Sequence record: DRR723986_5578
Length of the DNA stretch: 36,739 nucleotides
Direction: 5' to 3' (one strand)
Both the position numbers and the translations under genes were made by a program. Every line of letters starts with the position of its first letter. Position 1 is the stretch's first letter. Of this stretch, positions 2,891 to 36,739 are shown one piece after another. The notes below the pieces were generated by a model. It saw only the letters and a program-made list of their open reading frames with translations. It was not told where the DNA came from and made no database searches.

Positions 2891-3796
2891 TCAATTTCTA
2901 CTGGCTACGCGTTCGAGCAAAAGGACAGTCGCGAAACCCACGGCCATCAGCAGCGCACACATCAACCATTGAGGGTCGGCCTGTTCAGCGTACTGCATGG
3001 GCAAGACATTATGCCAATCGACGCTGTGCTCATCGGTTAATAACCGCCCCGCTGAGGAAAGCTTCCACGGCCAGATCACCGCCAATGATCCCAGCAGAAT
3101 CCCCGTCAGCGTAGCCAGCAACGAGCGCCGATGGGTGTGCATCAGGTAGCTAAGCAGGCGCACAAACAACATCAGGCCCGTGGCGCAACCCAACATGAAC
3201 ACCGCGATCATGCCAAGGTCCATCGACTTAATGGCATTGATAATGGGCTCATACATCCCCAGCAACAGCAGGATAAAACTGCCTGAAATTCCCGGCAAGA
3301 TCATCGCGCATATCGCCACCGCACCCGCGCCATAAACGGTCAGCATATTCACCGGCACCTCAGCCGGGCGCAGCGCGGAGATGACCAGCGCGAAAACCAA
3401 GCCCAGTACAACAAAGCCAACAGGCTGACCCCGGCCGGGAATCTGCTGGTAGACAAACAATGCCGACGCGAGAATCAACCCGAAAAAGAAGGCTGCCAGC
3501 AATAGCGGATGAGTAGCCAGAGCCCAGGATATCGCCCGTGCCAGCGACAACACACTAATAGCGATTCCCAGCAATAAACTCAGCAGAAAACCGCCGTTAA
3601 CGTACTGCCATGCCGCCGACGGACCACGCGTGAACAATAACTTGAGTGCCTGCAGGTTGCAGGCTTTCAAACTTTCAATCAGCTGGTCGTAAATACCGGT
3701 GATGAAGGCAACCGTTCCTCCCGAAACTCCCGGTACAATATCAGCAGCACCCATTGCCGCCCCGCGCAGCATCACGCCGGCGCTAAAGCCCTTCAT
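2891..3796 (-). CDS. DUF368 family membrane protein (putative undecaprenyl-phosphate translocase, PopT-like)
   Basis: Twin re-entrant motifs MGAADIVPGVSGGT and AMILPGISGS; many TM helices. Confidence 0.88.
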   Translation of the reverse strand: MKGFSAGVMLRGAAMGAADIVPGVSGGTVAFITGIYDQLIESLKACNLQALKLLFTRGPSAAWQYVNGGFLLSLLLGIAISVLSLARAISWALATHPLLLAAFFFGLILASALFVYQQIPGRGQPVGFVVLGLVFALVISALRPAEVPVNMLTVYGAGAVAICAMILPGISGSFILLLLGMYEPIINAIKSMDLGMIAVFMLGCATGLMLFVRLLSYLMHTHRRSLLATLTGILLGSLAVIWPWKLSSAGRLLTDEHSVDWHNVLPMQYAEQADPQWLMCALLMAVGFATVLLLERVASRN

Positions 3797-4522: not shown

Positions 4523-5545
4523 TCAGGCGTTAATAAATTCTCTCACAAGCGCTGTAGCGAAACAGCCACTGGGCAGTGAAAACTGCAACTGCAGCTGATC
4601 ATCACTTAACCACTGCCAGCATAATTCCTTTGGAACAACCCGCAGACTGCGCCGCTCCATTTTCATGCCGTGGCGCAGTAAACCGTCGCACAGCGTTTTA
4701 TGGGCAGCAAACACCGATTGTTCAATGGCGTCCACCTCGGCGGTAACACTGTGGCGCGCCACCTTGCCAAACAAGGGGCCACTGGGGTGAATATCCCCCT
4801 CAGCGATGCGTTTTTCGATATCCTCATCCGGCTCAGCCGCAAAAACACTGCCGCTGTCGCGCAAGCTATATAGCTCACCCTCTAAGGGCGATAGCCACGT
4901 TCCTGCTAGCAATCGTAATGCCAAAACCTCATTAAACAGGTAAGAGCGCGCCGAGGACAGGTAAATACTTCGCTGAAATCGCTGAGGTTTACTCTCCCCC
5001 TCAAACCAAGCGCGGCACTGCTCGATATTCGCACCCTCGTGGCCAAAGCGCTGTTCACCGAAATAGTTGGGGTAGCCGGCGCACAGTATCTTCAGACGGC
5101 GATCGATGTCATCGCGGTCACCAACCACCTCGCGCAGGCGAATCACAAAGCGATTGGCTCGGTGACTGCCAGGGCGCAGTTTCTGCCGGTGCCGCCCCCA
5201 GCGCTGTACCTTCCAAAAACTGTCGCCCGATAGCTCAGCAATATCGTCCCAGTCTCGCCCCTGCTTACCCGGCAGATGAACGCAGAACCATTGCCGAGTT
5301 AAGGCATGTCGGTCTTTCAATCCACTATAGGTAACGGCTTTGAGGGAAACACCGGCTAGGTCAGCGATACGGCGGGCAACATACTCGGTGTTATTGCCAC
5401 GCTTCTCCACCCACAGCCAATCGAATTCACCATCGAGGCTAAATTCAACATCAAACTGTTCTTCGACTTCAAAATCCTCGGGCACGCTGCGCAGGCGTCC
5501 GCGCGCCTGAGGAGCGCCGAGATAGGTGGGCCAGTCAGGCAGCAT
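4523..5545 (-). CDS. truD: tRNA pseudouridine(13) synthase TruD
   Basis: [20 protein letters not shown] (catalytic D), [23 protein letters not shown] at 5545 overlaps ispF end. Confidence 0.93.
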
Positions 5546-14923: not shown

Positions 14924-17900
14924 CTAGTCAACCCACACCCGCGCATTGCGGAACATACGCATCCAACCGCTATCTTCACCCTGATCTGCAGGTGCCCAGC
15001 TGTTGGTAACGCTGCGGAATACGCGCTCCGGATGCGGCATCATGATGGTGACACGGCCGTCATTGGAGCTCACGCCGGTAATACCCTGGGGCGAACCATT
15101 GGGATTCGCCGGATACTGCTCGGTAAGCTCACCAGCATTATTCACATAGCGCAGTGCGACATTCCCCGACGCCGCCATCGCCTGAAGCTGCTCAGCTTTC
15201 GCAAACTCAGCACGGCCCTCGCCGTGCGCCACCGCTACCGGCAGGCGCGAACCGGCCATACCGCTTAACAATATGGAGGGCGATTCGGGAATTTCAACCA
15301 TCGCCACCCGCGCCTCAAACTGTTCTGAGCGGTTGCGCACAAAATGCGGCCAGTGCTCGGCACCGGGAATCAGCGAGTGCAAATTCGACATCATCTGACA
15401 GCCGTTACACACGCCCAGCGCGAAGCTGTCTTGGCGGTTGAAAAACTGCTGGAACACATCCCGCGCGCGGGCATTAAACAAAATGCTCTTCGCCCAGCCT
15501 TCGCCCGCACCCAGCACATCGCCGTAGGAGAAGCCGCCACAGGCAGCCAAGCCTTTAAACTCGGCAAGGTCGAGGCGACCGCTGAGAATGTCACTCATGT
15601 GAACATCGACGGCGGCAAAGCCTGCGCGGTCAAAGGCCGCGGCCATTTCCATTTGGCCATTGACGCCCTGCTCACGCAGCACTGCCAGCTTGGGCCGCTC
15701 ACCTCGCTGAATATAGGGCGCGGCGATGTCTTGCTGAGGATCGAAACTCAGATCGACAAATAAGCCGGTGTCGTCCTCGCGCAAGGCGTCAAATTCCTGC
15801 TCGGCGCACTCGGGGTTATCGCGCAGGGCCTGCATACGGTAGCTCAACTCTGCCCAGCGACGGTGCAGCGCCAACCGGTCTGCCAGCAGAATCTCGTCGC
15901 CGTTCAGCGACACCTTAATCTGGCTGCCCAGAACAGGCACACCAATATCCTGAACCAAATCACTGAGGCCGTAATCGGCAAACAGCGCCATCACCGCCGC
16001 CAAATCACTGCGGCGCACCTGAATCACGGCGCCCGCTTCTTCGGCAAACAGCTCAGCTTGCGGCGTCGCAGAACCTTGCAACGCAATATCCAAACCGCAG
16101 TGTCCAGCGAAGGCCATTTCCAACAGGGTAATCAGCAAACCGCCATCAGAGCGATCGTGGTAAGCCAGAATATGGCCTGATTCTAACAAGGCCTGGGTGG
16201 CATTGAAGAAGGCTTTCAACAGTGCGGGATCATCGATATCTGGCGCATCATTGCCCAGCTCGCCGCAAACTTGCGCCAGGCAAGACCCGGCCATGCGGCG
16301 TTGCCCGGCGCCCAGATCAATGGCCAGCAGCAAGCTGTCCTGCGTGGCATCCAGGACCGGCGTCACGGTTTTGCGCACGTCGACCACCGGCGCAAAAGCG
16401 GAAATTACCAGCGACATCGGCGCGGTAACGGCCTTGTCTTCACCGTCGTCCTGCCATGCGGTGCGCATCGACATACTGTCTTTACCCACGGGGATAGTCA
16501 GCCCCAAGGCTGGGCAAAACTCCATACCAACCGCTTGCACTGTGTCGTACAGGCGCGCGTCCTCGTCGCCGTGACCCGCTGCGCACATCCAGTTTGCTGA
16601 CAGCTTGATATCCGACAACTGGGCAATGCGCGTCGCCGCAATATTGGTGATCGCTTCCGCCACCGCCATGCGACCCGATGCCGGCGCATTCACCAGGGCC
16701 AACGGCGTGCGCTCGCCCATCGACATCGCCTCACCCGCGGTGCTGTCGTAACTCACCGTGGTCACCGCGCAGTCGGCCACAGGCACCTGCCAGGGGCCAA
16801 CCATTTGGTCTCGATGAACCATGCCAGTAACCGAGCGGTCACCGATGGTGATCAGGAAGTTCTTGCTGGCAATCGCTGGCAAGCACAGCAGGCGATCCAG
16901 CGACTCTTCAACACTCAGCGCACAGTCGAATGCGGGCTGAACCACGTCACTGCGCTGCGCTTCTCGGTGCATTTTCGGGGGTTTGCCGAACAGTACCGAC
17001 ATCGGCAAATCAACGGGATTGTTATCAAAGTGACGGTCGCCGACACGCAGTGTTTTCTCTTCGGTCGATTCGCCCACTACCGCATACGGGGCGCGCTCGC
17101 GCTCGCAAATGCTTTCGAAGGTCGCCAGGTTTTCCGGCGCAATGGCAATAACATAGCGCTCCTGAGATTCGTTACACCAAATCTCCAATGGCGACATACC
17201 CGGCTCGTCATTGGGGACTTCGCGCAGCTCAAAATTACCGCCGCAGCCACCGTCTTTCACCAGCTCGGGGAAAGCGTTGGACAGGCCGCCAGCGCCCACA
17301 TCGTGAATAAAGGCAATGGGGTTGTTCTCGCCAAGCGCCCAGCAGCGGTCGATCACCTCTTGGCAACGACGCTCTATTTCGGGGTTTTGACGCTGCACGG
17401 AAGCGAAGTCTAGGTCGGCACTGGATGAGCCAGAACTCATCGACGAGGCCGCACCACCACCCAGGCCAATCAACATTGCCGGGCCACCCAGGGCGATCAG
17501 CTTGTAACCGGCTGGGAATTCGTCTTTGACAACATGCTCGGCCTTAATATTGCCGTATCCGCCCGCCAACATAATCGGCTTGTGGTAGCCGCGACGCTCT
17601 TCGCCCTCCGCAGTAACAATATTCTGCTCGTAACTGCGGAAATAGCCGCACAAGTTAGGGCGGCCAAATTCATTGTTGAATGCCGCGCCACCAATTGGGC
17701 CCTCAATCATAATATCCAGGGCCGAGACAATGCGCTCTGGCTTGCCGTAATCCTGCTCCCACGCCTGCTCAAAGCCGGGCACCTGCAAGTTAGACACGGT
17801 AAAACCAGTCAGGCCGACTTTGGGCTTGGAGCCACGACCCACCGCGCCCTCATCGCGAATCTCGCCGCCCGCACCGGTGCCGGCACCGGAGAACGGTGCA

Positions 17901-18811
17901 ATCGCCGTGGGGTGATTGTGCGTCTCCACCTTCATTAGCAGGTGAATATCTTCGTGGTGGAATTGGTACTCCGCCGTTACCGGGTCGGGATAAAAACGCC
18001 CACCGGGGCTACCCACCACAACCGCGGCATTATCCGAATAGGCACTGAGTACATTCTCGCCGCCCAATTCGTTGGTGTTTTTGATCATGGCGAATAGCGA
18101 CTTGTCTTGCGGCTTACCGTCAATGGTCCAACTCGCGTTGAAAATTTTGTGACGGCAGTGCTCAGAGTTGGCCTGCGCGAACATCATCAGTTCAACATCG
18201 CTGGGGTTGCGCTGCAGTTCTTTGAAGCTATCGACCAAGTAGTCAATCTCATCCTCGGCCAGCGCCAGGCCCAGCTCGGCATTCGCCGCCACCAGAGCCT
18301 CGCGCCCACCGGCAAGCACGTCTACGCGCTGCATCGGTTTGGGGGAATGCTGACTAAACAATTGCGCGGCGGCGGGCACCGAGTCTAAAACCACTTCCAC
18401 CATCCGGTCGTGAATAGCCGCCGCCACTGCCGCGCGCTGACTTTCACTAAGCGGTTGCTCACTTTCCAGCCGGTAAAGAACACCTCGCTCCAGGCGGCGT
18501 AGCGTCGTCAAGCCGCTGATATGGGCAATATCACTGGCCTTGCTCGACCAGGGCGATATCGTGCCCGGGCGCGGCACAACAAAAAACTCACTGCCGCTTA
18601 ATTCAGCCGGCGCCGCACCTGAGCCGGGCCCATACTGCAGCAATTGCTCGAGTATTGTCTGCTGTTCATGACTGAGTTCACCCTCCACGTCGGCCAAGTG
18701 CACAAACTGCGCACTGAGTGCCTGTAGCTCCGGAATCGCGGTGCGCAGGGTGGTCAGCAGTTTTTCAATACGGAATTCAGAAAGCGCCGCAGCGCCGGGA
18801 ACGATCAGCAT
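14924..18811 (-). CDS. purL: Phosphoribosylformylglycinamidine synthase (large PurL)
   Basis: [51 protein letters not shown]; 1295 aa. Confidence 0.98.
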
Positions 18812-30827: not shown

Positions 30828-32378
30828 ATGAAGATTCACCAGTTCGTCGACTATCACGCGCGGGTGCGTGCTAGCAGCGACTGCATCATTTACCAAGACA
30901 CTGTCCTCAGCTACGGCGACATTACCGAGCAATCTCACCGTATTGCTGCAGGGTTACTGGCGCGGGGCATTCAACCCGGCGACCGCATCGCCATCATGTG
31001 TCAAAACTGCCCGGACTTTCTCACCGTGCTGCTGGCCTGCAGCCGCATTGGCGCGGTGTTGTGTGCGGTAAATTACCGCCTTGCCCCCGAAGAAATTCGC
31101 TACGTTGTGCAAGACAGCGAAGCAAAATTATTGATTGTTGCCGACGAGGAACTGGCCACCTTGAGCGACGCTGTGCAACAGGCCCAGCCCGAGCTGAACA
31201 TTCTGGCCAGCCACAACCAAAGCTGGACCGATTGGCTGTCTTCGCTGAGTGATGCTGGCGAGGTCGACAACAGCAGTGACAGCTCGGCAGCGCTACTCCA
31301 GCTCTACACCAGCGGCACCACCGGCCGCCCCAAAGGGGTGGTGCTCAGCCAGCGAAACATCCTGTCGCTGTACTGCATGACCAGCGCGTCCTGGGAGGTG
31401 AAATCGGGGCCTGGCGGCCGCGATCTCGTTAGCGCGCCCAACTTCCATATCGGCGGTGCCGGCACACTGATCCTGCCGGTGTTATCCGGCGCCAGCGTGG
31501 TACTGCACAAGACCTTCGACCCCTTTAAAATCGCAGAAGATCTTGAGCGTTATAAAATTGAAAACACCTTTATGGTTCCGGCGATGATCATGGCGCTGAT
31601 CCATATGGTGCCCGACCTGCGCCAACGCGACTTCAGCCACCTGCGGCAAATTGTGTACGGCGCCTCCCCCATCAACAGCGCACTACTACAAGCGGCAATG
31701 GACGTATTCGACTGCGACTTCTATCAGGTATACGGCATGACCGAGACCTGCGGGGCTGTCGTGTCACTCTCGGCAGACGATCACCGCCGCGCAGCGAACG
31801 ACGCCCCCGAACTGCTCGCCTCCTGCGGCCGACCCCAAGCGGGCGTTGACGTGAAAGTGGTCGACCGTGACGGCAATCCACTACCCAATGGCGAAACCGG
31901 CGAACTGCTCATCCGCTGCGACGCCAACATGATGGAATACTACAACCGCCCCGACGCAACCGCCGAAACCCTGGCCGGCGGCTGGGTGCACACCGGCGAC
32001 TCAGCAGTGATCGACGAGCACGGTTATATTTTCCTGCGAGACCGCATTAAAGACATGATTATTAGCGGCGGCGAAAATATCTATCCTATCGAGATCGAAA
32101 ACGCCCTCAGCCAACACCCGGCCGTGGCAGATGTTGCCGTGGTGGGCATTCCCTGTAAAAACTTTGGCGAAACGCCACTGGCCTGCGTGGTGCTGGCCGA
32201 GGGCAAGCAGCTAAACGAGGCGGAGATGATCGAGTTCTTACGCAATGACCTGGCAGGCTACAAAATTCCTCGCCAGCTCAAAGTGTTTGCCGAACTGCCG
32301 AGAAACCCAACCGGGAAAATTCTGAAAAAAGTGCTGCGCGAGCCCTACTGGGAAAATCAGGAACGGGCGATTAATTAA
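30828..32378 (+). CDS. Long-chain fatty-acid--CoA ligase (AMP-binding)
   Basis: YTSGTTGRPKGV, YGMTETCG, HTGD, DRIKDMIISGGENIYP, PRNPTGKILK; ATG 30828 after AAGGAG. Confidence 0.92.
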   Translation: MKIHQFVDYHARVRASSDCIIYQDTVLSYGDITEQSHRIAAGLLARGIQPGDRIAIMCQNCPDFLTVLLACSRIGAVLCAVNYRLAPEEIRYVVQDSEAKLLIVADEELATLSDAVQQAQPELNILASHNQSWTDWLSSLSDAGEVDNSSDSSAALLQLYTSGTTGRPKGVVLSQRNILSLYCMTSASWEVKSGPGGRDLVSAPNFHIGGAGTLILPVLSGASVVLHKTFDPFKIAEDLERYKIENTFMVPAMIMALIHMVPDLRQRDFSHLRQIVYGASPINSALLQAAMDVFDCDFYQVYGMTETCGAVVSLSADDHRRAANDAPELLASCGRPQAGVDVKVVDRDGNPLPNGETGELLIRCDANMMEYYNRPDATAETLAGGWVHTGDSAVIDEHGYIFLRDRIKDMIISGGENIYPIEIENALSQHPAVADVAVVGIPCKNFGETPLACVVLAEGKQLNEAEMIEFLRNDLAGYKIPRQLKVFAELPRNPTGKILKKVLREPYWENQERAIN

Positions 32379-32394
32379 AGCGAGGCTTGAAATT

Positions 32395-32436
32395 AAGGTG
32401 AGCTGACGCAGTTACCCACCGCGACAGCTCAGCCTT
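32395..32436. terminator. Imperfect hairpin between convergent ligase and YtoQ genes
   Basis: AAGGTGAGCTG...CAGCTCAGCCTT inverted repeat; no clear U-tract. Confidence 0.35.
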
Positions 32437-32458
32437 CACCCCTCAAAACACGAACAAA

Positions 32459-32896
32459 CTACGACTGAGCAACAATGTAGGTCAGCATCTCCACTACCTG
32501 CTCTGGTGTCGTCGCCCAGGCATAAGCGGCGGCATCCACCTCTTTCAATGGGTGAACAATCTCCTCACCATGCAGCGTAATATAGGGCTTACCCTTCGCC
32601 GCGCAATACCCCGCATCAAAGGCCGCGTTCCACTGCTTATATTTATCGCCAAAGCGGATTACCGCAATATCGCAATGCTCGATCAGTGTGGATATCCGCA
32701 TCGCATTCACCTTTGCCGACTTGTGATCGCGCCAAAAACTGTTCTCCTCCGCGCCCAACACATCACCCGCGGCATCACTGGCCTCATGATTCGTCACCGC
32801 CGATGAAAACGTAATACCACTGCCTTTGCAGCCAGCAATAATTTGCTCCCGCCAGTCTGTATGGATTTCGCCGGAAAGATAGACATTCAATTTCAT
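32459..32896 (-). CDS. YtoQ family protein (nucleoside 2-deoxyribosyltransferase-like)
   Basis: VYLSGEIHTDWRE, HEASD, RFGDKYKQWNAAFDAGY, HPLKEVDA; ATG 32896. Confidence 0.85.
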   Translation of the reverse strand: MKLNVYLSGEIHTDWREQIIAGCKGSGITFSSAVTNHEASDAAGDVLGAEENSFWRDHKSAKVNAMRISTLIEHCDIAVIRFGDKYKQWNAAFDAGYCAAKGKPYITLHGEEIVHPLKEVDAAAYAWATTPEQVVEMLTYIVAQS

Positions 32897-33015
32897 GTTA
32901 AAAGCCCTGGAGATCGATTTAGAAAAACGAATTGATACGCAAAAGAACAGCGAATGGTATCGGAATCTGGGCTGACCAGCCAAGCGTCATCAACAAACCA
33001 CTGGCCGCCCTGCGC

Positions 33016-33591
33016 TTATTTCGGCTTTTCCTCGTTTGCCAGCATGGTTAGGTATTTGGCAAAACGCCGCTGCCGCGTCTCCGGTTTTTTCGCACTGATC
33101 AAACCGTAGGCAATCACAAAACGACTCGCTTTATTCAGCGTATCAAAAAACGACTTCGCCTTCGGTTCAATTTCAAGCGCCGCTAGAAAATCCTCTGGCA
33201 CCACCATCTCACTCACCGCATACGCGTTTTCCCAACGTCCATCTGCCTGCGCCGCGCGAACATGCACCAGGCCCGGCTCCTGCATTCGACCCTCGTCAAT
33301 CAAACGCTCCACATGTGCCCGGTTCCGCTTCGACCAACTGCTGCGCGCCTTGCGCGGCGTAATCCGCTGCAGATACGCCTGCTCATCGAGCAACTTCTTT
33401 ACCCCGTCGATCCACCCCCAGCACAAGGCCTCAATCACCACCTCATCCCAGATCACACTAATCACCGCCGACTGCTTCTTAAAAATCTTCACCCACAACT
33501 CACTCTCACTGGCATGATTTACCTCAAGCCAGGCAGCAAGTTGCTTTGGTGTTGGGAACGCTATGATTCGAGATGGGTCGACGTCTGGCAT
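33016..33591 (-). CDS. YdeI/OmpD-associated (bacteriocin-protection) family protein, terminal cassette
   Basis: WLEVNH, EALCWGWIDG, TPRKARSSWSKRN, VPEDFLAAL, AKKPETRQRR. Confidence 0.88.
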   Translation of the reverse strand: MPDVDPSRIIAFPTPKQLAAWLEVNHASESELWVKIFKKQSAVISVIWDEVVIEALCWGWIDGVKKLLDEQAYLQRITPRKARSSWSKRNRAHVERLIDEGRMQEPGLVHVRAAQADGRWENAYAVSEMVVPEDFLAALEIEPKAKSFFDTLNKASRFVIAYGLISAKKPETRQRRFAKYLTMLANEEKPK

Positions 33592-33603
33592 TTAATGACG
33601 TTC

Positions 33604-33721
33604 TCTTAACGCCTAAAACAGCGGCAGATAAAATGGAGCGCGTTTTTGTGCAAAAATGAACACAGCGAATGCACAAAAAGGCGCGGAGTTTTGGCTCTCC
33701 GACTCCCGGTATTTGTTAGGC
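33604..33721 (-). repeat. attC site (118 bp) of the GNAT cassette
   Basis: Minus strand R'' GCCTAAC (contains GNAT stop) ... long stem TTTTTGTGCA/TGCACAAAAA ... R' GTTAAGA; L boxes poorly paired. Confidence 0.8.
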
Positions 33722-34297
33722 AAGTTTGTGTTCAAGATTTTGTTTAACTCCGGGCCATTCATTTGCAATTATGCTAAACAGGACGGAGTCTCTTATCCGC
33801 CCATCTGGCATGACCATATGATTACGCAATATACCTTCCTGCTTTGCGCCAAGCCGCAATATAGCATTGCGAGAATTAGAGTTAAGATAGTCAGTTAGCA
33901 GCTCTACACGATTTAAACCGAGAGTCTCGAAGGCATGTGTGAGCATGAGCAATTTAGCTTCAGTATTTATTTTCGTCCTTTGAAAGGATTTTCCAAGGAA
34001 CGTGAAGCCAATTTCGACGCGCTTGTTTGGGAGATTGGCCTTCATGAACCGTGTAGAACCTGCAATTTGGTTGGTGGCTTCATCAATGGTGGCAAATGCC
34101 AAGCCATCGCCGAACTCATGCGCGCTAAATGCATTTTGAAGAAATTTGTCGATGTCACTTATGTGAGGAACTAATGTGAAAAACAAGTTCCATAACTCAC
34201 CATCTGAAATAGCGCGACACAACCCGTCCTTGTGCCTTTCAGATAAAGGCTCTAAGCGGACATTTTTTCCTTGTAATACTACGGGTTCGAATATCAT
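33716..34297 (-). CDS. GNAT family N-acetyltransferase (RimJ/RimL-like), cassette
   Basis: VRLEPL, GSTRF, VEIGFTFL, INTEAKLLML, RVEL, NSRNAILRLGAKQEGILRNH, RDSVLFSI. Confidence 0.9.
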   Translation of the reverse strand: MIFEPVVLQGKNVRLEPLSERHKDGLCRAISDGELWNLFFTLVPHISDIDKFLQNAFSAHEFGDGLAFATIDEATNQIAGSTRFMKANLPNKRVEIGFTFLGKSFQRTKINTEAKLLMLTHAFETLGLNRVELLTDYLNSNSRNAILRLGAKQEGILRNHMVMPDGRIRDSVLFSIIANEWPGVKQNLEHKLA

Positions 34298-34319
34298 GAC
34301 TTTCCTTGATCGAGAGATT

Positions 34320-34418
34320 TCCTAACGCCTGAGTTCACCGGCATTTGAGGCGATGCCTGTTTTTGCGGTAGCAAAAATGGGCAGCGGGTCAAATGTCCGG
34401 TGCAACGATTTGTTAGGT
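34320..34418 (-). repeat. attC site (99 bp) of the CBASS cassette
   Basis: Minus strand ACCTAAC-AAATC-GTTGCACC-GGAC...GCC-GGTGAAC-TCAGGC-GTTAGGA: canonical R''/L''/L'/R' with both extrahelical bases. Confidence 0.93.
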
Positions 34419-34430
34419 GCGCGCGGCACC

Positions 34431-35534
34431 TCAGAGCACTTTCGAGGTAATAGCACTGGAGTCGTAAACCGACGATAGCGGACGCAATTCCTTGAATATT
34501 GAGTAAGCCAAGTCCTCTATTTCTTTGGCCAGAATCCCCAAAGCCTCTGTTTTTGAGTCTGAATCGAAAATTTTTCGCGTATCATCCGGCACCAACAATC
34601 CATTCCTTTGGGCTGGGTAGTCGCGAAGGGTGCAAAGATAATTTCTGGTTGCCTCAACCAGACCCAACGACATGTAGGCTGGCATGCTCAATCTGCCTTC
34701 CATGTGGTAAGCGATCCCCGCAAGATCATAGCTAGTTAGCGCCTTGGCCTTTGCTTTCTTGTAGTCAGGCATGTCGGCAACCAAATTCTTCAAAAGCCTA
34801 ATTACTCTTTTTAAGTTTCCAGAATATTGCCCATCTCGTTCATTCACGCGATGGATATGCTTGAAAGGAAAATTGGCCAGTAAAGAGTGTTGCTTTTTGT
34901 CGTAAATCTTCACGCCAGCATCTTTTTCTTGGAAACTCCTCTGATAATCATGTGTGTGCCACCAGCAACTTGGTACGATGTCGATTTTGCGCTTCAAACT
35001 TCCGCCCATCAGCGATATAGATTTTCCGTTTGAGCAATCTACAGTTGCCTCGTAGTACCTAGAGGTCAGTTTGGATTCCGATTTTTGACGCAGCTCTGCA
35101 ACTATATCGACCATAGGGCGATTGTCAGGCGCATAGCAAGCAGTTCCATCTAACTTGGGCGTTTGGACCAAGACCGTATCTTCACAGAGGATCAGCATGT
35201 CCACATCAGAATGCCCCTCAATGTGCACGTTCAAAGCCACCGAACCCTGCATGCGTTTTGCTGCACCAATGCCCTCCGTCTTCAACATCCCAATTAGCGT
35301 GTCAGATACACGGTTCCCTTCATCAACCGACACTTGTGTGGATTGAGGATTAACCTGTGCCATTGCACCAACCGCATACCTGACACCGGAGCCCTCTTGA
35401 AGGTACTCATAATCCTCCCTGGTGCGGTAGTCCCCTGGATCCCAAGAATTCAGGCCTTTCTCTAGAAGGACTATCTCTCTACTACCTTGGCGCCGATCCT
35501 TGAGCCTTTTCAATCTTTGATCAAAATCAATCAT
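34431..35534 (-). CDS. CBASS cyclic oligonucleotide synthase (CD-NTase, CdnE-like)
   Basis: Pol-beta NTase motif QGSV-x9-SDVD, third Asp in KIDIVP, NFP lid motif, LKRVIRLLKNL helix; 8-bp overlap with upstream Cap15-type gene. Confidence 0.85.
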   Translation of the reverse strand: MIDFDQRLKRLKDRRQGSREIVLLEKGLNSWDPGDYRTREDYEYLQEGSGVRYAVGAMAQVNPQSTQVSVDEGNRVSDTLIGMLKTEGIGAAKRMQGSVALNVHIEGHSDVDMLILCEDTVLVQTPKLDGTACYAPDNRPMVDIVAELRQKSESKLTSRYYEATVDCSNGKSISLMGGSLKRKIDIVPSCWWHTHDYQRSFQEKDAGVKIYDKKQHSLLANFPFKHIHRVNERDGQYSGNLKRVIRLLKNLVADMPDYKKAKAKALTSYDLAGIAYHMEGRLSMPAYMSLGLVEATRNYLCTLRDYPAQRNGLLVPDDTRKIFDSDSKTEALGILAKEIEDLAYSIFKELRPLSSVYDSSAITSKVL

Positions 35535-36129
35535 CTTTATCTCGCTTTAGCGTCATCAAGCCATACGATTTTCTTCCACCACTATTGAAGTAGGCCCCTT
35601 CAGCGAAACCCAAATTCTTATCGAACTCAATCTCGCAGTAACCTTTGTGCGGGCTGAGTTCATGAATCTTGTCTAGGTTCGGCTCATTCTTGTAGCTGTA
35701 ACTCAATATCCAACCGCCTCTAACCCCATGCCTTTTAAGTAGTGTTGCCGTGTAGCTGGCGCTCCGACTATCGGCGGTTTTGACATTGATTGATATCTTC
35801 TTCCAGTTCTGCTCGATGTCGAGCGCTGCGGACCATTCATATTTCGCTCCGCCGTTTTCATCTAAGGTGGTCCCGGATACGTTCCAAGCGCCATTTAAGT
35901 CCGGTATCGAAAATAGAGGAACTTTCCATGCCCATCGATTAAAGATGTAATGCAAGCCAAAATATACGACGCCCGCAGTCACCGAACCTTTCGTAAATGC
36001 CTCCCAACCGCTGATGCTTGAAAGCCAGGAAAGCAGTTGAGCAACGCCGCCAGCTATGAGAATCGCAGCAACACCTAGCCAGCGCCCAACTCCGGCACGA
36101 TCGTGTCCAAAAATCGCATACTCATGCAT
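35527..36129 (-). CDS. cap15: CBASS effector Cap15 (2TM + beta-barrel, SMODS-associated)
   Basis: Two N-terminal TM segments, PDLNGAW, YSYKNEP, HKG, GAYFN-GGR; ATG 36129 after GGAGG RBS (ORF-track start 36198 lies inside attC). Confidence 0.83.
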   Translation of the reverse strand: MHEYAIFGHDRAGVGRWLGVAAILIAGGVAQLLSWLSSISGWEAFTKGSVTAGVVYFGLHYIFNRWAWKVPLFSIPDLNGAWNVSGTTLDENGGAKYEWSAALDIEQNWKKISINVKTADSRSASYTATLLKRHGVRGGWILSYSYKNEPNLDKIHELSPHKGYCEIEFDKNLGFAEGAYFNSGGRKSYGLMTLKRDKDD

Positions 36130-36170
36130 ACCTGCCTCCGATTCTCGGGTCGCGCATAGGTTTCTCGCGC

Positions 36171-36260
36171 ACCTAACGCCCGCCTTTGGGGCAGACAAAA
36201 TAAGCGCAGCGCTTTTGGCTGTCCCAGCCCCGCAGGGGCGACAACAGGCGTTTGTTATAT
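36171..36260 (-). repeat. attC site (90 bp, branched) of the Trypco2-like cassette
   Basis: Minus strand ATATAAC-AAAC-GCCTGTTG...CAAAGGC-GGGC-GTTAGGT with internal side hairpin GCCCC-TGC-GGGGC. Confidence 0.85.
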
Positions 36261-36261
36261 T

Positions 36262-36684
36262 TCATTTTATTGGCTTAGCTGGATTTGGAATTTTGGCTGC
36301 TTCGCGATTGACCGTTCTAGCAGCTGGATCGTTGATTTCTTCAGCTGGAAATAAAACTGGCACTGTGAACTGAATACGGCTTGCGAGTACATTTTTTGAG
36401 CCTTTTTCACCGCCAAAATCTCCGCCGAACAAACCAGACAACACTTTTACTTTTGCGCCACCTTGAGCTGTATCCTCCGCCGTAATTGCCACATCGAACG
36501 AAACTGGTTGAGCAAAATTGTTGTTGCGGTTATCCCAAGTGGCATTTTGACTTACGGCATCTGTTTTTCGCATAAGCCCGCCTGGATTGATCGATGCACC
36601 TAAAGCCTGGGACTTTGCTTGCGCGTCTTTTATTCCACCCACGATTGAAACCAATGTTTCAGATACGAAGTCTTTTAGATCCAC
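36262..36684 (-). CDS. Trypco2-like small protein, cassette
   Basis: MDLKDFVSETL helix, FDVAITAE, Gly-rich hairpin GGAKVKVLSGLFGGDFGG, SRIQFTVP; GTG start after GGAG. Confidence 0.65.
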   Translation of the reverse strand: MDLKDFVSETLVSIVGGIKDAQAKSQALGASINPGGLMRKTDAVSQNATWDNRNNNFAQPVSFDVAITAEDTAQGGAKVKVLSGLFGGDFGGEKGSKNVLASRIQFTVPVLFPAEEINDPAARTVNREAAKIPNPAKPIK

Positions 36685-36699
36685 TTGACTCTCCCGAAA

Positions 36700-36739
36700 A
36701 TATAACGCCGCATTCAGCGGCTTGTCCGCTGCAATGCTT
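36700..36739 (-). repeat. attC site, very short, R'' cut by window end
   Basis: Minus strand AAGC-ATTGCAGC-GGAC-AA-GCC-GCTGAAT-GCGGC-GTTATAT; R' complements R'' (ATATAAC) of the next attC. Confidence 0.8.

What the first reader, a model, noticed from the sequence alone, without database searches (positions are those of the whole stretch)
34326..36176. Complete two-gene CBASS anti-phage system packaged as a single integron cassette
Seen: a Cap15-type gene (2TM + beta-barrel) overlaps a CD-NTase gene by 8 bp (ATGATTGA). The pair is bounded by R' GTTAGGT (36177-36171) and a canonical attC starting ACCTAAC (34418-34412), giving a 1851-bp unit. Established: effector plus CD-NTase without Cap2/3 or Cap6/7 is type I (short) CBASS, and Cap15 kills infected cells by membrane disruption. 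Inference: IntI can excise, shuffle and transfer this immune module as one piece. Multi-gene signalling systems in one cassette are less common than single-gene cassettes.
Basis: partly seen in the sequence, partly recalled or inferred. Interest (0 to 1): 0.85.

Follow-up and report, generated by a model that had tools for sequence, protein, structure and literature searches.

The report
CBASS defence pair in integron cassette
A two-gene anti-phage suicide system (a membrane-damaging Cap15 receptor plus the enzyme that makes its cyclic-nucleotide signal) sits as a single mobile gene cassette in a chromosomal integron; this is a clean example of a kind of packaging already described in 2024-2025.

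Summary
On the minus strand, cap15 (36129..35527, 200 aa) overlaps a CD-NTase gene (35534..34431, 367 aa) by 8 bp. Both match their families strongly: PADLOC 2.7e-73 and 6.6e-132, Pfam Cap15 domains, and PDB Cap15 and CdnE.

The pair is bounded by GTTAGGT (36177-36171) and a 99-nt attC (34418-34320). That attC folds as a bulged hairpin (z -6.4, 0 of 200 shuffles). The unit is 1851 bp and is the second-to-last cassette of a co-oriented array.

Both cassette boundaries coincide with synteny breakpoints in public assemblies. The array end coincides to the base with the end of homology to the nearest held genome, which carries an intact integron integrase.

All 16 related loci fetched keep cap15 directly upstream of the cyclase. 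Six of them show attC flanks. Three genera share a 96-98% identical copy confined to the cassette.

Integron cassettes encoding defence systems, including a two-ORF CBASS type I-like cassette (brc135), are in print. This scan also found CBASS cassettes before on other DNA.

Not shown here: expression, anti-phage activity, and an integrase in this genome.

The parts
36171..36260 (-). attC of the preceding cassette. It starts right after that cassette's TGA stop (36264-36262), with R''-like ATATAAC at 36260-36254 and R' GTTAGGT at 36177-36171. The CBASS cassette begins at T36176.
   Evidence: Sequence read. With the R box constrained to pair, the bottom-strand energy is -21.7 kcal/mol; my scan used the register 36256-36171. 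Unconstrained z is -2.8. It aligns with the terminal attC of G001 and with the attCs of the L028/L029 CBASS cassettes, sharing TAACAAA...GCGGGCGTTA. X1 and X2 contigs leave the window at 36180.
34326..36176 (-). The cassette itself: 1851 bp from TT of the upstream R' to G of its own R'. It holds cap15, the CD-NTase gene and the attC.
   Evidence: for the coordinates. GC is 0.44-0.53 against 0.55-0.63 in the chromosomal part of the window. X1 and X2 hold about 97% identical contigs between 34430 and 36180.
35527..36129 (-). cap15: a 200-aa effector with two N-terminal TM helices (residues 14-69) and a C-terminal beta-barrel cyclic-dinucleotide receptor (residues 74-196). GGAGG lies at 36139-36135.
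   Evidence: Pfam PF23471 at 7.3e-11 and PF18153 at 4.9e-35. PADLOC PDLC00686 at 2.7e-73; all 16 matched families are '2TM effector'. PDB 7n34 Cap15 at 8.7e-24.
34431..35534 (-). CD-NTase gene: a 367-aa protein, clade-E-like, with G97-S98, D110, D112 and D185. No AGS-C or other extra domain was detected.
   Evidence: PADLOC PDLC00772 at 6.6e-132; all 11 matched families are 'oligonucleotide-cyclase'. PDB hits: 6wt9 at 2.9e-21, 6wt8 (CdnE c-di-GMP synthase) at 1.5e-14, 7x4c (EfCdnE) at 3.5e-9. Pfam gives only NTP_transf_2 below its cut-off. NCBIfam CBASS cyclase hits are below cut-off.
35527..35534 (-). 8-bp overlap ATGATTGA between the cap15 stop and the CD-NTase start, consistent with translational coupling.
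34320..34418 (-). attC of the CBASS cassette, 99 nt. R'' is ACCTAAC (34418-34412) and R' is GTTAGGA (34326-34320). The recombination point is G34326|T34325.
   Evidence: The bottom (+) strand forms a hairpin at -31.4 kcal/mol, z -6.36, 0 of 200 shuffles. It has a 6-7 bp R box, a 4-5 nt unpaired spacer, and single-base bulges (T and C) 6 bp apart on the 3' arm. It is 88% identical to an attC of G001:C10. The X8 contig leaves the window at 34329.
33610..34325 (-). Context: the next and last cassette, 716 bp. It holds a GNAT acetyltransferase gene (34297..33716) and the last attC (33721-33604, R' GTTAAGA at 33610-33604).
   Evidence: Pfam PF13302 at 2e-17. Sequence read. G001 homology (95%) covers window 32000-33609 and stops at the TT of this R'.
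36262..36738 (-). Context: the ORF of the preceding cassette, at least 158 aa and open at the window end. Its function is unknown.
   Evidence: No Pfam hit and no PADLOC hit.

Best explanation
This is a minimal type I CBASS (Cap15 effector followed by a clade-E-like CD-NTase) carried as one 1851-bp gene cassette. It is the second-to-last cassette of a sedentary chromosomal integron array in a marine-type gammaproteobacterium.

The mechanism is inferred from the families. On phage infection the CD-NTase makes a cyclic dinucleotide; which one cannot be told from sequence. The signal binds the C-terminal beta-barrel of Cap15. Cap15's two TM helices then disrupt the inner membrane and kill the cell before phage release (abortive infection).

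The 8-bp gene overlap couples translation of effector and cyclase.

As a cassette, the pair can be excised and reinserted as a unit. An integron integrase would act on the folded bottom strand of the two flanking attC sites, at G36177|T36176 and G34326|T34325. Because no promoter of its own is evident, expression probably depends on read-through from upstream cassettes or on relocation towards attI/Pc.

Shown here: gene identities, catalytic motif, attC structure, cassette boundaries as natural breakpoints, and movement of related cassettes between genera. Inferred: the trigger, the nucleotide made, anti-phage activity, present-day excision and the level of expression.
For: Gene identities:
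- Cap15 and CD-NTase match their families strongly.
- The catalytic GS...DxD...D motif aligns to 6wt9.
- The cassette holds only these two ORFs, and the neighbours have no defence hits.

attC and array:
- The 3' attC forms a hairpin with z -6.36 and bulges on the expected arm of the bottom strand.
- It belongs to the host lineage's attC family, at 88% identity to an attC of G001.
- All cassette ORFs are co-oriented.
- Cassette GC is lower than that of the chromosome.
- The array end matches the end of G001 homology at T33609. G001 has different cassettes there and IntI at 433.5 bits against a cut-off of 265.
- 19 of 28 genomes of that genus have an integron integrase over the cut-off.
- 0 of 28 have this CD-NTase. 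The positive control for that search gave 2 of 2.

Natural breakpoints and relatives:
- X1 and X2 contigs carry the CBASS genes at about 97% identity and diverge at 36180. The X8 contig carries the GNAT cassette at about 98% and diverges at 34329.
- 16 of 16 relatives keep cap15 directly upstream of the cyclase.
- 6 of 16 have attC flanks. 6 of 8 tested flank sites fold with 0 of 200 shuffles as good.
- L017, L018 and L019 come from three genera and share 96-98% identity over about 1.8 kb, starting about 10 nt before GTTATGAG.

Literature:
- Cap15 membrane disruption and CdnE+Cap15 two-gene systems are described in passages of PMC10686824 and 10.64898/2026.10.06.757031.
Against: - No intI, attI or Pc lies in the window, and the window's own assembly is not held. 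An integrase in this genome is therefore assumed from G001.
- G001's intI is on a different contig from its array pieces.
- No promoter-like site lies in front of cap15, and the count in the region equals chance (4 found, 3.8 expected). The pair may be silent where it sits.
- The bulged base nearer the R box is C, not the usual G. The identity of the usual base is recalled, not checked here.
- The last base of R' is A, so GTTAGGA misses the strict GTTRRRY consensus.
- Among four genomes with cassette-borne relatives, only 1 of 4 has an integron integrase over the cut-off. The 3' attC is truncated in L017 and L019. Such cassettes therefore often end up immobile.
- NCBIfam CBASS cyclase models score below their cut-offs.
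- 10 of 16 related pairs show no attC flanks. The module is not integron-specific.
Confidence: 0.85

Rival explanations
1. The cassette is a stored, silent copy. It is promoterless and far from Pc, so it is not expressed at this position and gives no immunity until IntI moves it to attI. This is the 'biobank' model of sedentary integrons. It overlaps with the best explanation and differs only on the cassette's present activity.
For: No promoter-like site lies between 36176 and 36129, and none in the region exceeds chance. The cassette is second to last in the array. Darracq et al. (bioRxiv 10.1101/2024.07.02.601686, passages seen) and passages of a review (PMC13434031) report that relocating distal cassettes to first position switches on protection.
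Against: The scan used is a crude sigma-70 consensus. Read-through from the co-oriented upstream cassette is possible. No RNA data were available; the look-up of sequencing runs listed no RNA holder, and that says nothing either way. The length of the array upstream is unknown because the window ends at 36739.
Confidence: 0.4
2. The pair is a fixed relic. The attC sites are no longer recombined, either because this genome has no working IntI or because the sites are decayed. The pair then behaves as an ordinary chromosomal defence locus.
For: There is no intI in the window. Only 1 of 4 genomes with related cassettes has an intact integron integrase. The attC is truncated in L017 and L019. R' GTTAGGA and the C bulge deviate from the strict consensus.
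Against: The 3' attC is intact and strongly structured. The nearest genome has a full-length intI with no stops. Cassette content differs between the window and G001, X1/X2 and X8 exactly at the R' junctions, which points to recent recombination. 0 of 28 genus genomes have the gene.
Confidence: 0.15
3. The pair does not serve phage defence here. Instead it acts as an addiction or stabilising module of the array, like the toxin-antitoxin cassettes of sedentary integrons, or as a signalling pair with another role.
For: Cap15 is a lethal membrane effector. TA cassettes that stabilise arrays are common in sedentary integrons (Darracq et al., section 5, read).
Against: There is no antitoxin-like logic, because the cyclase activates the effector rather than neutralising it. 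Homologous CdnE+Cap15 pairs protect against phage in experiments (passages). The same pair also occurs outside integrons in 10 of 16 loci.
Confidence: 0.04
4. The flanking 'attC' sites are chance palindromes or another repeat family (REP-like), and the two genes are not a cassette.
For: The core 9-mer alone is not enriched. Rfam gives no hit in the window at gathering thresholds; I did not check whether Rfam holds an attC family. The upstream site folds only moderately well (z -2.8).
Against: Three sites lie directly after stop codons of co-oriented ORFs, with RYYYAAC-like and GTTRRR ends. The CBASS site has z -6.36. The same repeat families occur in G001, which has IntI. Synteny breaks within 3 nt of G|TT at three junctions.
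Confidence: 0.02

Closest known systems
Type I CBASS with CdnE + Cap15: Staphylococcus schleiferi Ssc-CdnE03/Cap15; Escherichia albertii DancE/Cap15; Yersinia aleksiciae Cap15 (structures 7n34/7n35)
   Same: It is a two-gene operon of a CD-NTase and a 2TM + beta-barrel effector. The beta-barrel matches 7n34 at 8.7e-24. The cyclase's nearest solved relatives are CdnE enzymes. Membrane disruption without accessory Cap genes is described in passages of PMC10686824 and 10.64898/2026.10.06.757031.
   Different: Identity to the solved proteins is low; I estimated roughly 30% by eye from the printed alignment for the cyclase. No AGS-C domain was detected, whereas DancE has one. The effector gene comes first and overlaps the cyclase gene by 8 bp. 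The nucleotide product and the trigger are unknown. The genomic vehicle is an integron cassette. The original Cap15 paper (Duncan-Lowey et al. 2021) is recalled, not read here.
brc135, a two-ORF CBASS type I-like cassette of mobile integrons (Kieffer et al., bioRxiv 10.1101/2024.07.02.601719; Science 2025 per the reference list seen)
   Same: It is a single integron cassette holding a nucleotidyl-transfer protein and a membrane protein, described as structurally similar to type I CBASS (passage seen).
   Different: brc135 comes from a mobile (INTEGRALL) integron. This cassette sits in a chromosomal array with lineage-specific attC sites. I could not obtain the brc135 sequence, so its relatedness is untested. 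The closest plasmid homologues of this cyclase are below 60% identical, and the one I looked at (a Klebsiella plasmid) is not in an integron.
Defence cassettes of sedentary chromosomal integrons (Darracq et al., bioRxiv 10.1101/2024.07.02.601686; Science 2025 per the reference list seen)
   Same: These are chromosomal arrays as stores of small defence systems of at most two components. The paper reports 783 complete systems in cassettes and proposes the 'biobank' model of silent distal cassettes (section 5 read whole; passages).
   Different: The text I read names PfiAT, Shedu, AbiV and PD-T7-4 as the common types and does not name CBASS among cassette systems. The list of types is in Table S4 and Fig. 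1D, which I could not see because supplements are closed.
Earlier finds of this scan: e1-4668824, e1-1954925, e1-2499696 (CBASS pairs in integron or integron-like cassettes on other DNA)
   Same: They describe a Cap15-like effector plus a CdnE-type cyclase as a 1.7-2 kb cassette.
   Different: They come from other genomes. A look-up by this cyclase's sequence found no look-alike window. These are AI notes and I did not check them.

Membership tests
CBASS, type I (CD-NTase + effector only) | CD-NTase with the GS...[DE]x[DE]...[DE] active site | tested here: met
   PADLOC cyclase PDLC00772 at 6.6e-132 over 3-361 of 367 residues. G97-S98, D110, D112 and D185 align to QGS...SDID...DVDIV of 6wt9. 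The motif definition is recalled.
CBASS, type I (CD-NTase + effector only) | Adjacent effector with a cyclic-nucleotide receptor domain | tested here: met
   Cap15_CD_rec PF18153 at 4.9e-35, 120.9 bits against a cut-off of 31.2. The genes overlap by 8 bp.
CBASS, type I (CD-NTase + effector only) | No Cap2/Cap3 (type II), no HORMA/TRIP13 Cap6-8 (type III), no type IV accessory genes | tested here: met
   The cassette holds only two ORFs of 60 aa or more on the coding strand. The four neighbouring ORFs have no PADLOC hit; they are GNAT, OmdA, YtoQ and one unknown. The rest of the genome could not be searched because no assembly is held.
CBASS, type I (CD-NTase + effector only) | Phage-triggered nucleotide synthesis and abortive infection | not testable with these tools
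   This needs expression, plaque assays and LC-MS.
Cap15 effector family | Two N-terminal TM helices plus a C-terminal minimal beta-barrel | tested here: met
   PF23471 at 7.3e-11 (residues 14-69) and PF18153 (residues 74-196). 7n34 at 8.7e-24 over residues 73-196. No structure was predicted here.
CD-NTase clade E (CdnE) | Placement within clade E in a CD-NTase phylogeny | tested here: inconclusive
   The three best PDB hits are CdnE enzymes: 6wt9, 6wt8 and 7x4c. No tree was built, so 'clade-E-like' rests on nearest neighbours only.
Integron gene cassette | 3' attC: an imperfect palindrome R''-L''...L'-R' with bulged bases on the bottom strand, about 55-140 nt | tested here: met
   The site at 34418-34320 is 99 nt, with ACCTAAC...GTTAGGA. 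The bottom-strand hairpin has z -6.36 and T and C bulges 6 bp apart on the 3' arm. The last R' base (A) and the C bulge depart from the strict consensus. IntegronFinder's model was not available.
Integron gene cassette | 5' boundary at G|TT of the preceding attC, within a co-oriented array | tested here: met
   GTTAGGT lies at 36177-36171, 47 nt before the cap15 ATG. There are three attCs and at least three co-oriented cassettes. X1 and X2 contigs diverge at 36180, and the X8 contig at 34329.
Integron gene cassette | Array attached to an intI/attI/Pc platform | tested here: inconclusive
   None lies in the window, and the array runs off its right end. The nearest held genome G001 shares the array's distal junction and has IntI (TIGR02249, 433.5 bits against 265), but on another contig. 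19 of 28 genus genomes have IntI.
Integron gene cassette | IntI-dependent excision and integration as a circle | not testable with these tools
   Only indirect evidence exists: 96-98% identical relatives in three genera bounded at the R' junction, and different neighbours in public contigs. Read laying reported no joints, but all four runs were contigs, which cannot show rare circles.

The most novel reading that the evidence does not exclude
The same cap15-cdn module is found with at least three unrelated attC types:
- the window's, which is 88% identical to an attC of an unrelated cassette in the sister genome;
- the CTCATAAC... type of L016-L019;
- the CCCTAACAAACGC... type of L028/L029.

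It also occurs without any attC in 10 of 16 loci. If these reflect independent captures of one operon into cassettes, each fitted with a host-lineage attC, the family would be a natural series for testing how integron cassettes are made. Cassette genesis is, as far as I recall, still an open question in integron biology.
Probability: 0.2. Interest if true: 0.55.

Novelty: new member of a known kind. Interest (0 to 1): 0.3.

Why it matters
The find adds a well-delimited natural example of a whole cyclic-nucleotide immune pathway travelling as one integron cassette. It comes with unusually direct comparative evidence: cassette boundaries that coincide with breakpoints in independent assemblies, and 96-98% identical relatives in three genera. 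It supports the published view of chromosomal integrons as stores of small defence systems and extends it to non-Vibrio marine gammaproteobacteria. It does not open a new question. Its practical value is as a compact (1.85 kb) CBASS unit for cloning, and as one member of a cassette family useful for studying cassette spread and attC decay.

Tried and rejected
- The window's own genome is not held. I could not run an array-wide analysis or look for intI in this strain, so I used the nearest genome, G001, instead.
- Rfam at gathering thresholds gave no hit in the window.
- The 9-mer core count was not above chance.
- Generic direct-repeat search found no attC family, because the sites are too divergent.
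- My own attC heuristic is noisy. In the 16 related loci it flagged only 2 flank sites next to the pair (L028 upstream, L029 downstream). The other flank sites were found by reading the flanks and then folded. 6 of 8 had 0 of 200 shuffles as good; L018 upstream and L019 upstream were weak, at z -1.25 and -0.69.
- Plasmid search gave 52 records, all below 60% identity. The Klebsiella example lies between IS elements, not in an integron. I looked at no other record.
- I tried to place the array relative to intI in closed genomes of the genus. The flank is conserved only in G001, and in G002 the flank gene and intI are about 1.5 Mb apart, so nothing was learned.
- Sequencing runs: no RNA holder was listed, and no run held half of the words. 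Read laying showed no joints, but all four runs were contigs, so neither excision nor expression could be seen.
- I predicted no structure or complex, because family assignments were already decisive.
- Streamlining: cassette-borne and non-cassette relatives have the same sizes, 197-206 aa and 364-376 aa by the ORF tables. I saw no miniaturisation.
- Supplementary tables of Darracq et al. and Kieffer et al. could not be opened. I therefore do not know whether CBASS is listed among their cassette systems, or what the brc135 sequence is.
Full report
**What is in the sequence.** Two overlapping genes lie on the minus strand. The first runs 36129..35527 and encodes 200 aa. The second runs 35534..34431 and encodes 367 aa. 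They share the 8 bases ATGATTGA.

The ORF listing offers a longer first ORF starting at TTG 36198, but that start lies inside the upstream recombination site. ATG 36129 has GGAGG five bases upstream. Family profiles and all 16 relatives align from its first residue.

The matching GTTAGGA lies at 34326-34320. From T36176 to G34326 is 1851 bp.

**Gene identities.**
- The first protein is a Cap15. It matches Pfam Cap15_TM (7.3e-11, residues 14-69) and Cap15_CD_rec (4.9e-35, residues 74-196), both above their curated cut-offs.
- All 16 PADLOC families it matches are '2TM effector'; the best is 2.7e-73 over the full length.
- Its only solved relative is the Cap15 beta-barrel 7n34, at 8.7e-24.
- The second protein matches 11 PADLOC families, all 'oligonucleotide-cyclase'; the best is 6.6e-132 over residues 3-361.
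- Its best solved relatives are CdnE enzymes: 6wt9 at 2.9e-21, 6wt8 at 1.5e-14 and 7x4c at 3.5e-9.
- In the printed alignment, G97-S98, D110, D112 and D185 sit on the catalytic motif of 6wt9.
- Pfam gives only a sub-threshold NTP_transf_2 hit and no extra domain. NCBIfam CBASS models score below their cut-offs.
- I call it 'clade-E-like' on nearest neighbours only; no tree was built.

**Type of CBASS.** The cassette has no other ORF. The four neighbouring ORFs are an unknown 158-aa protein, a GNAT acetyltransferase, an OmdA/YdeI protein and a YtoQ protein, and none has a PADLOC hit. An effector plus a cyclase alone is type I.

**The recombination sites.** The site after the cyclase gene (34418-34320, 99 nt) folds as a long imperfect hairpin.
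- On the + strand, which is the bottom strand of the cassette, the energy is -31.4 kcal/mol, z -6.36, and 0 of 200 shuffles fold as well.
- It has a 6-7 bp R box, a short unpaired spacer, and two single-base bulges (T and C) 6 bp apart on the 3' arm. That is the arm where attC sites carry their extrahelical bases. The canonical layout is recalled, not checked here.
- My own scan of the whole window for AAC...GTT-closed hairpins gave this site -31.4. The best hit outside the integron part scored -21.7.
- The site is 88% identical to a site in the nearest held genome, G001.
- Two departures from the strict consensus: the last base of R' is A, and the R-box-proximal bulge is C.

The upstream site (36260-36171) is less well folded (z -2.8). 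It begins right after the stop codon of the preceding ORF and aligns with G001's terminal attC and with the attCs of two related CBASS cassettes. A third site (33721-33604) follows the GNAT gene.

**The array and its host lineage.**
- All cassette ORFs are co-oriented.
- Cassette GC is 0.43-0.53, against 0.55-0.63 in the chromosome.
- The window's own assembly is not held.
- G001 is 95% identical to window 32000-33609. That homology stops at T33609, the TT side of the last G|TT. Beyond it, G001 carries different cassettes with the same kind of attC.
- G001 has a full-length integron integrase at 433.5 bits against a cut-off of 265, with no stops. It sits at a contig end away from the array pieces.
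- In that genus, 19 of 28 species genomes have such an integrase. 0 of 28 have this cyclase. The same search gave 2 of 2 in genomes known to hold a relative.
- The CBASS cassette is therefore the second-to-last unit of a variable chromosomal array. It is a rare accessory in its genus.

**Natural evidence that the unit moves as one piece.** Public contigs were laid on window 33900-36600.
- In two metagenome runs from two studies (X1, X2), contigs about 97% identical cover the CBASS genes between 34430 and 36180. They then continue into unlike sequence, with the same loose end in both runs. So this is one alternative context, seen twice.
- In X8, a 13.3-kb contig carries the GNAT cassette at about 98% identity. 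It leaves the window at 34329 and runs into a different attC-like sequence.
- Both departures lie 3 nt beyond the G of the R' core. The three shared bases are the conserved GGC.
- The 3' boundary of the CBASS copy in X1 and X2 was not covered.
- No joints were reported, but all four runs were contigs, which cannot show rare circles.

**Relatives.** A scan of species genomes returned 16 loci at 51-77% protein identity to the cyclase.
- All 16 have a cap15 homologue directly upstream, at 47-76% identity and aligned from residue 1.
- Reading the flanks, 6 of 16 show attC sites or R' junctions next to the pair: L016 Bowmanella, L017 Marinobacter, L018 Pseudohongiella, L019 an Oceanospirillum MAG, L028 Vreelandella and L029 Glaciecola. 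In 10 of 16 I saw none.
- Of 8 flank sites folded, 6 had 0 of 200 shuffles as good and 2 were weak.
- L017, L018 and L019 share 96-98% nucleotide identity over about 1.8 kb. The shared stretch begins about 10 nt before GTTATGAG and ends inside the attC, with unrelated DNA outside. This is recent transfer of the whole two-gene cassette between genera.
- In L017 and L019 the 3' attC is cut short.
- L028 and L029 share 90% identity over 1818 bp.
- The window's copy is 69-70% identical to L016-L019, essentially over coding sequence only.
- Only 1 of 4 of these hosts has an integron integrase over the cut-off. Many such cassettes therefore sit in integrase-less arrays.

**How it most likely works.** This follows from the families involved (passages of PMC10686824 and 10.64898/2026.10.06.757031; the original Cap15 study is recalled, not read).
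- Infection activates the cyclase.
- Its cyclic dinucleotide binds the Cap15 barrel.
- The TM helices disrupt the inner membrane, and the infected cell dies before phage release.

Known Cap15 partners make different signals: cGAMP in S. schleiferi and c-di-AMP in E. albertii. The product here is therefore open.

No promoter-like site precedes cap15; the region has 4 sites against 3.8 expected. Expression by read-through, or after relocation to attI, is an inference.

**What is known already.**
- Darracq et al. report 783 complete defence systems in cassettes, never more than two components, mostly in chromosomal arrays (section 5 read whole; passages).
- A 2026 review summarises both papers (passages).
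I cannot say whether CBASS or this family is listed there.
- This scan also noted CBASS cassettes on other DNA. Those are unchecked AI notes, and none matches this sequence.

**Verdict.** This is a new member of a known kind. The most novel reading left open is that the same operon has been captured into cassettes more than once, with lineage-specific attC sites. I rate that at about 0.2.

Noticed in passing
window 33604-33721 and 33016-33591: The array ends here. The last attC (R' GTTAAGA at 33610-33604) is followed by an OmdA/YdeI-family gene that has no attC after it. G001 keeps the same junction at 95% identity, with homology ending exactly at T33609. The OmdA gene could be flanking chromosome or a fossil terminal cassette.
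   Followed up: partly
window 36262-36738 (minus strand): The ORF of the preceding cassette is at least 158 aa and open at the window end. It has no Pfam or PADLOC hit. Given its neighbour, it is an untested defence candidate.
   Followed up: partly
L017 3345-5157, L018 1197-3001, L019 3345-5110: A cap15-cdn cassette is 96-98% identical across a Marinobacter, a Pseudohongiella and an Oceanospirillum MAG. Its 3' attC is intact only in L018 (61 nt, z -3.8). It is cut short in L017 and L019, which should leave the cassette unable to excise there.
   Followed up: partly
L019 about 5096-5160: Directly after the truncated attC there is a tandem-like repeat of an approximately 20-nt unit. It may be the end of an inserted element that cut the attC.
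   Followed up: no
genomes G029-G032 (hosts of L017, L018, L016, L028): Only 1 of 4 has an integron integrase over the TIGR02249 cut-off, and there it lies on a different contig from the CBASS cassette. G030 and G032 show only short N-terminal IntI fragments. These look like integrase-less attC clusters or decayed integrons.
   Followed up: partly
window 33900-34415, seen in runs X3 and X8: The GNAT cassette occurs at 94-98% identity in a marine metagenome and in an isolate-type run. In both it has a different cassette upstream.
   Followed up: partly
L016 about 3290-3340: A masked stretch (run of N) lies just upstream of the Bowmanella cap15, so its 5' cassette boundary could not be read.
   Followed up: no
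window 1-32400: The rest of the window is ordinary, higher-GC chromosome with long ORFs, for example one of 1295 aa at 14924-18811 on the minus strand. I did not examine it.
   Followed up: no
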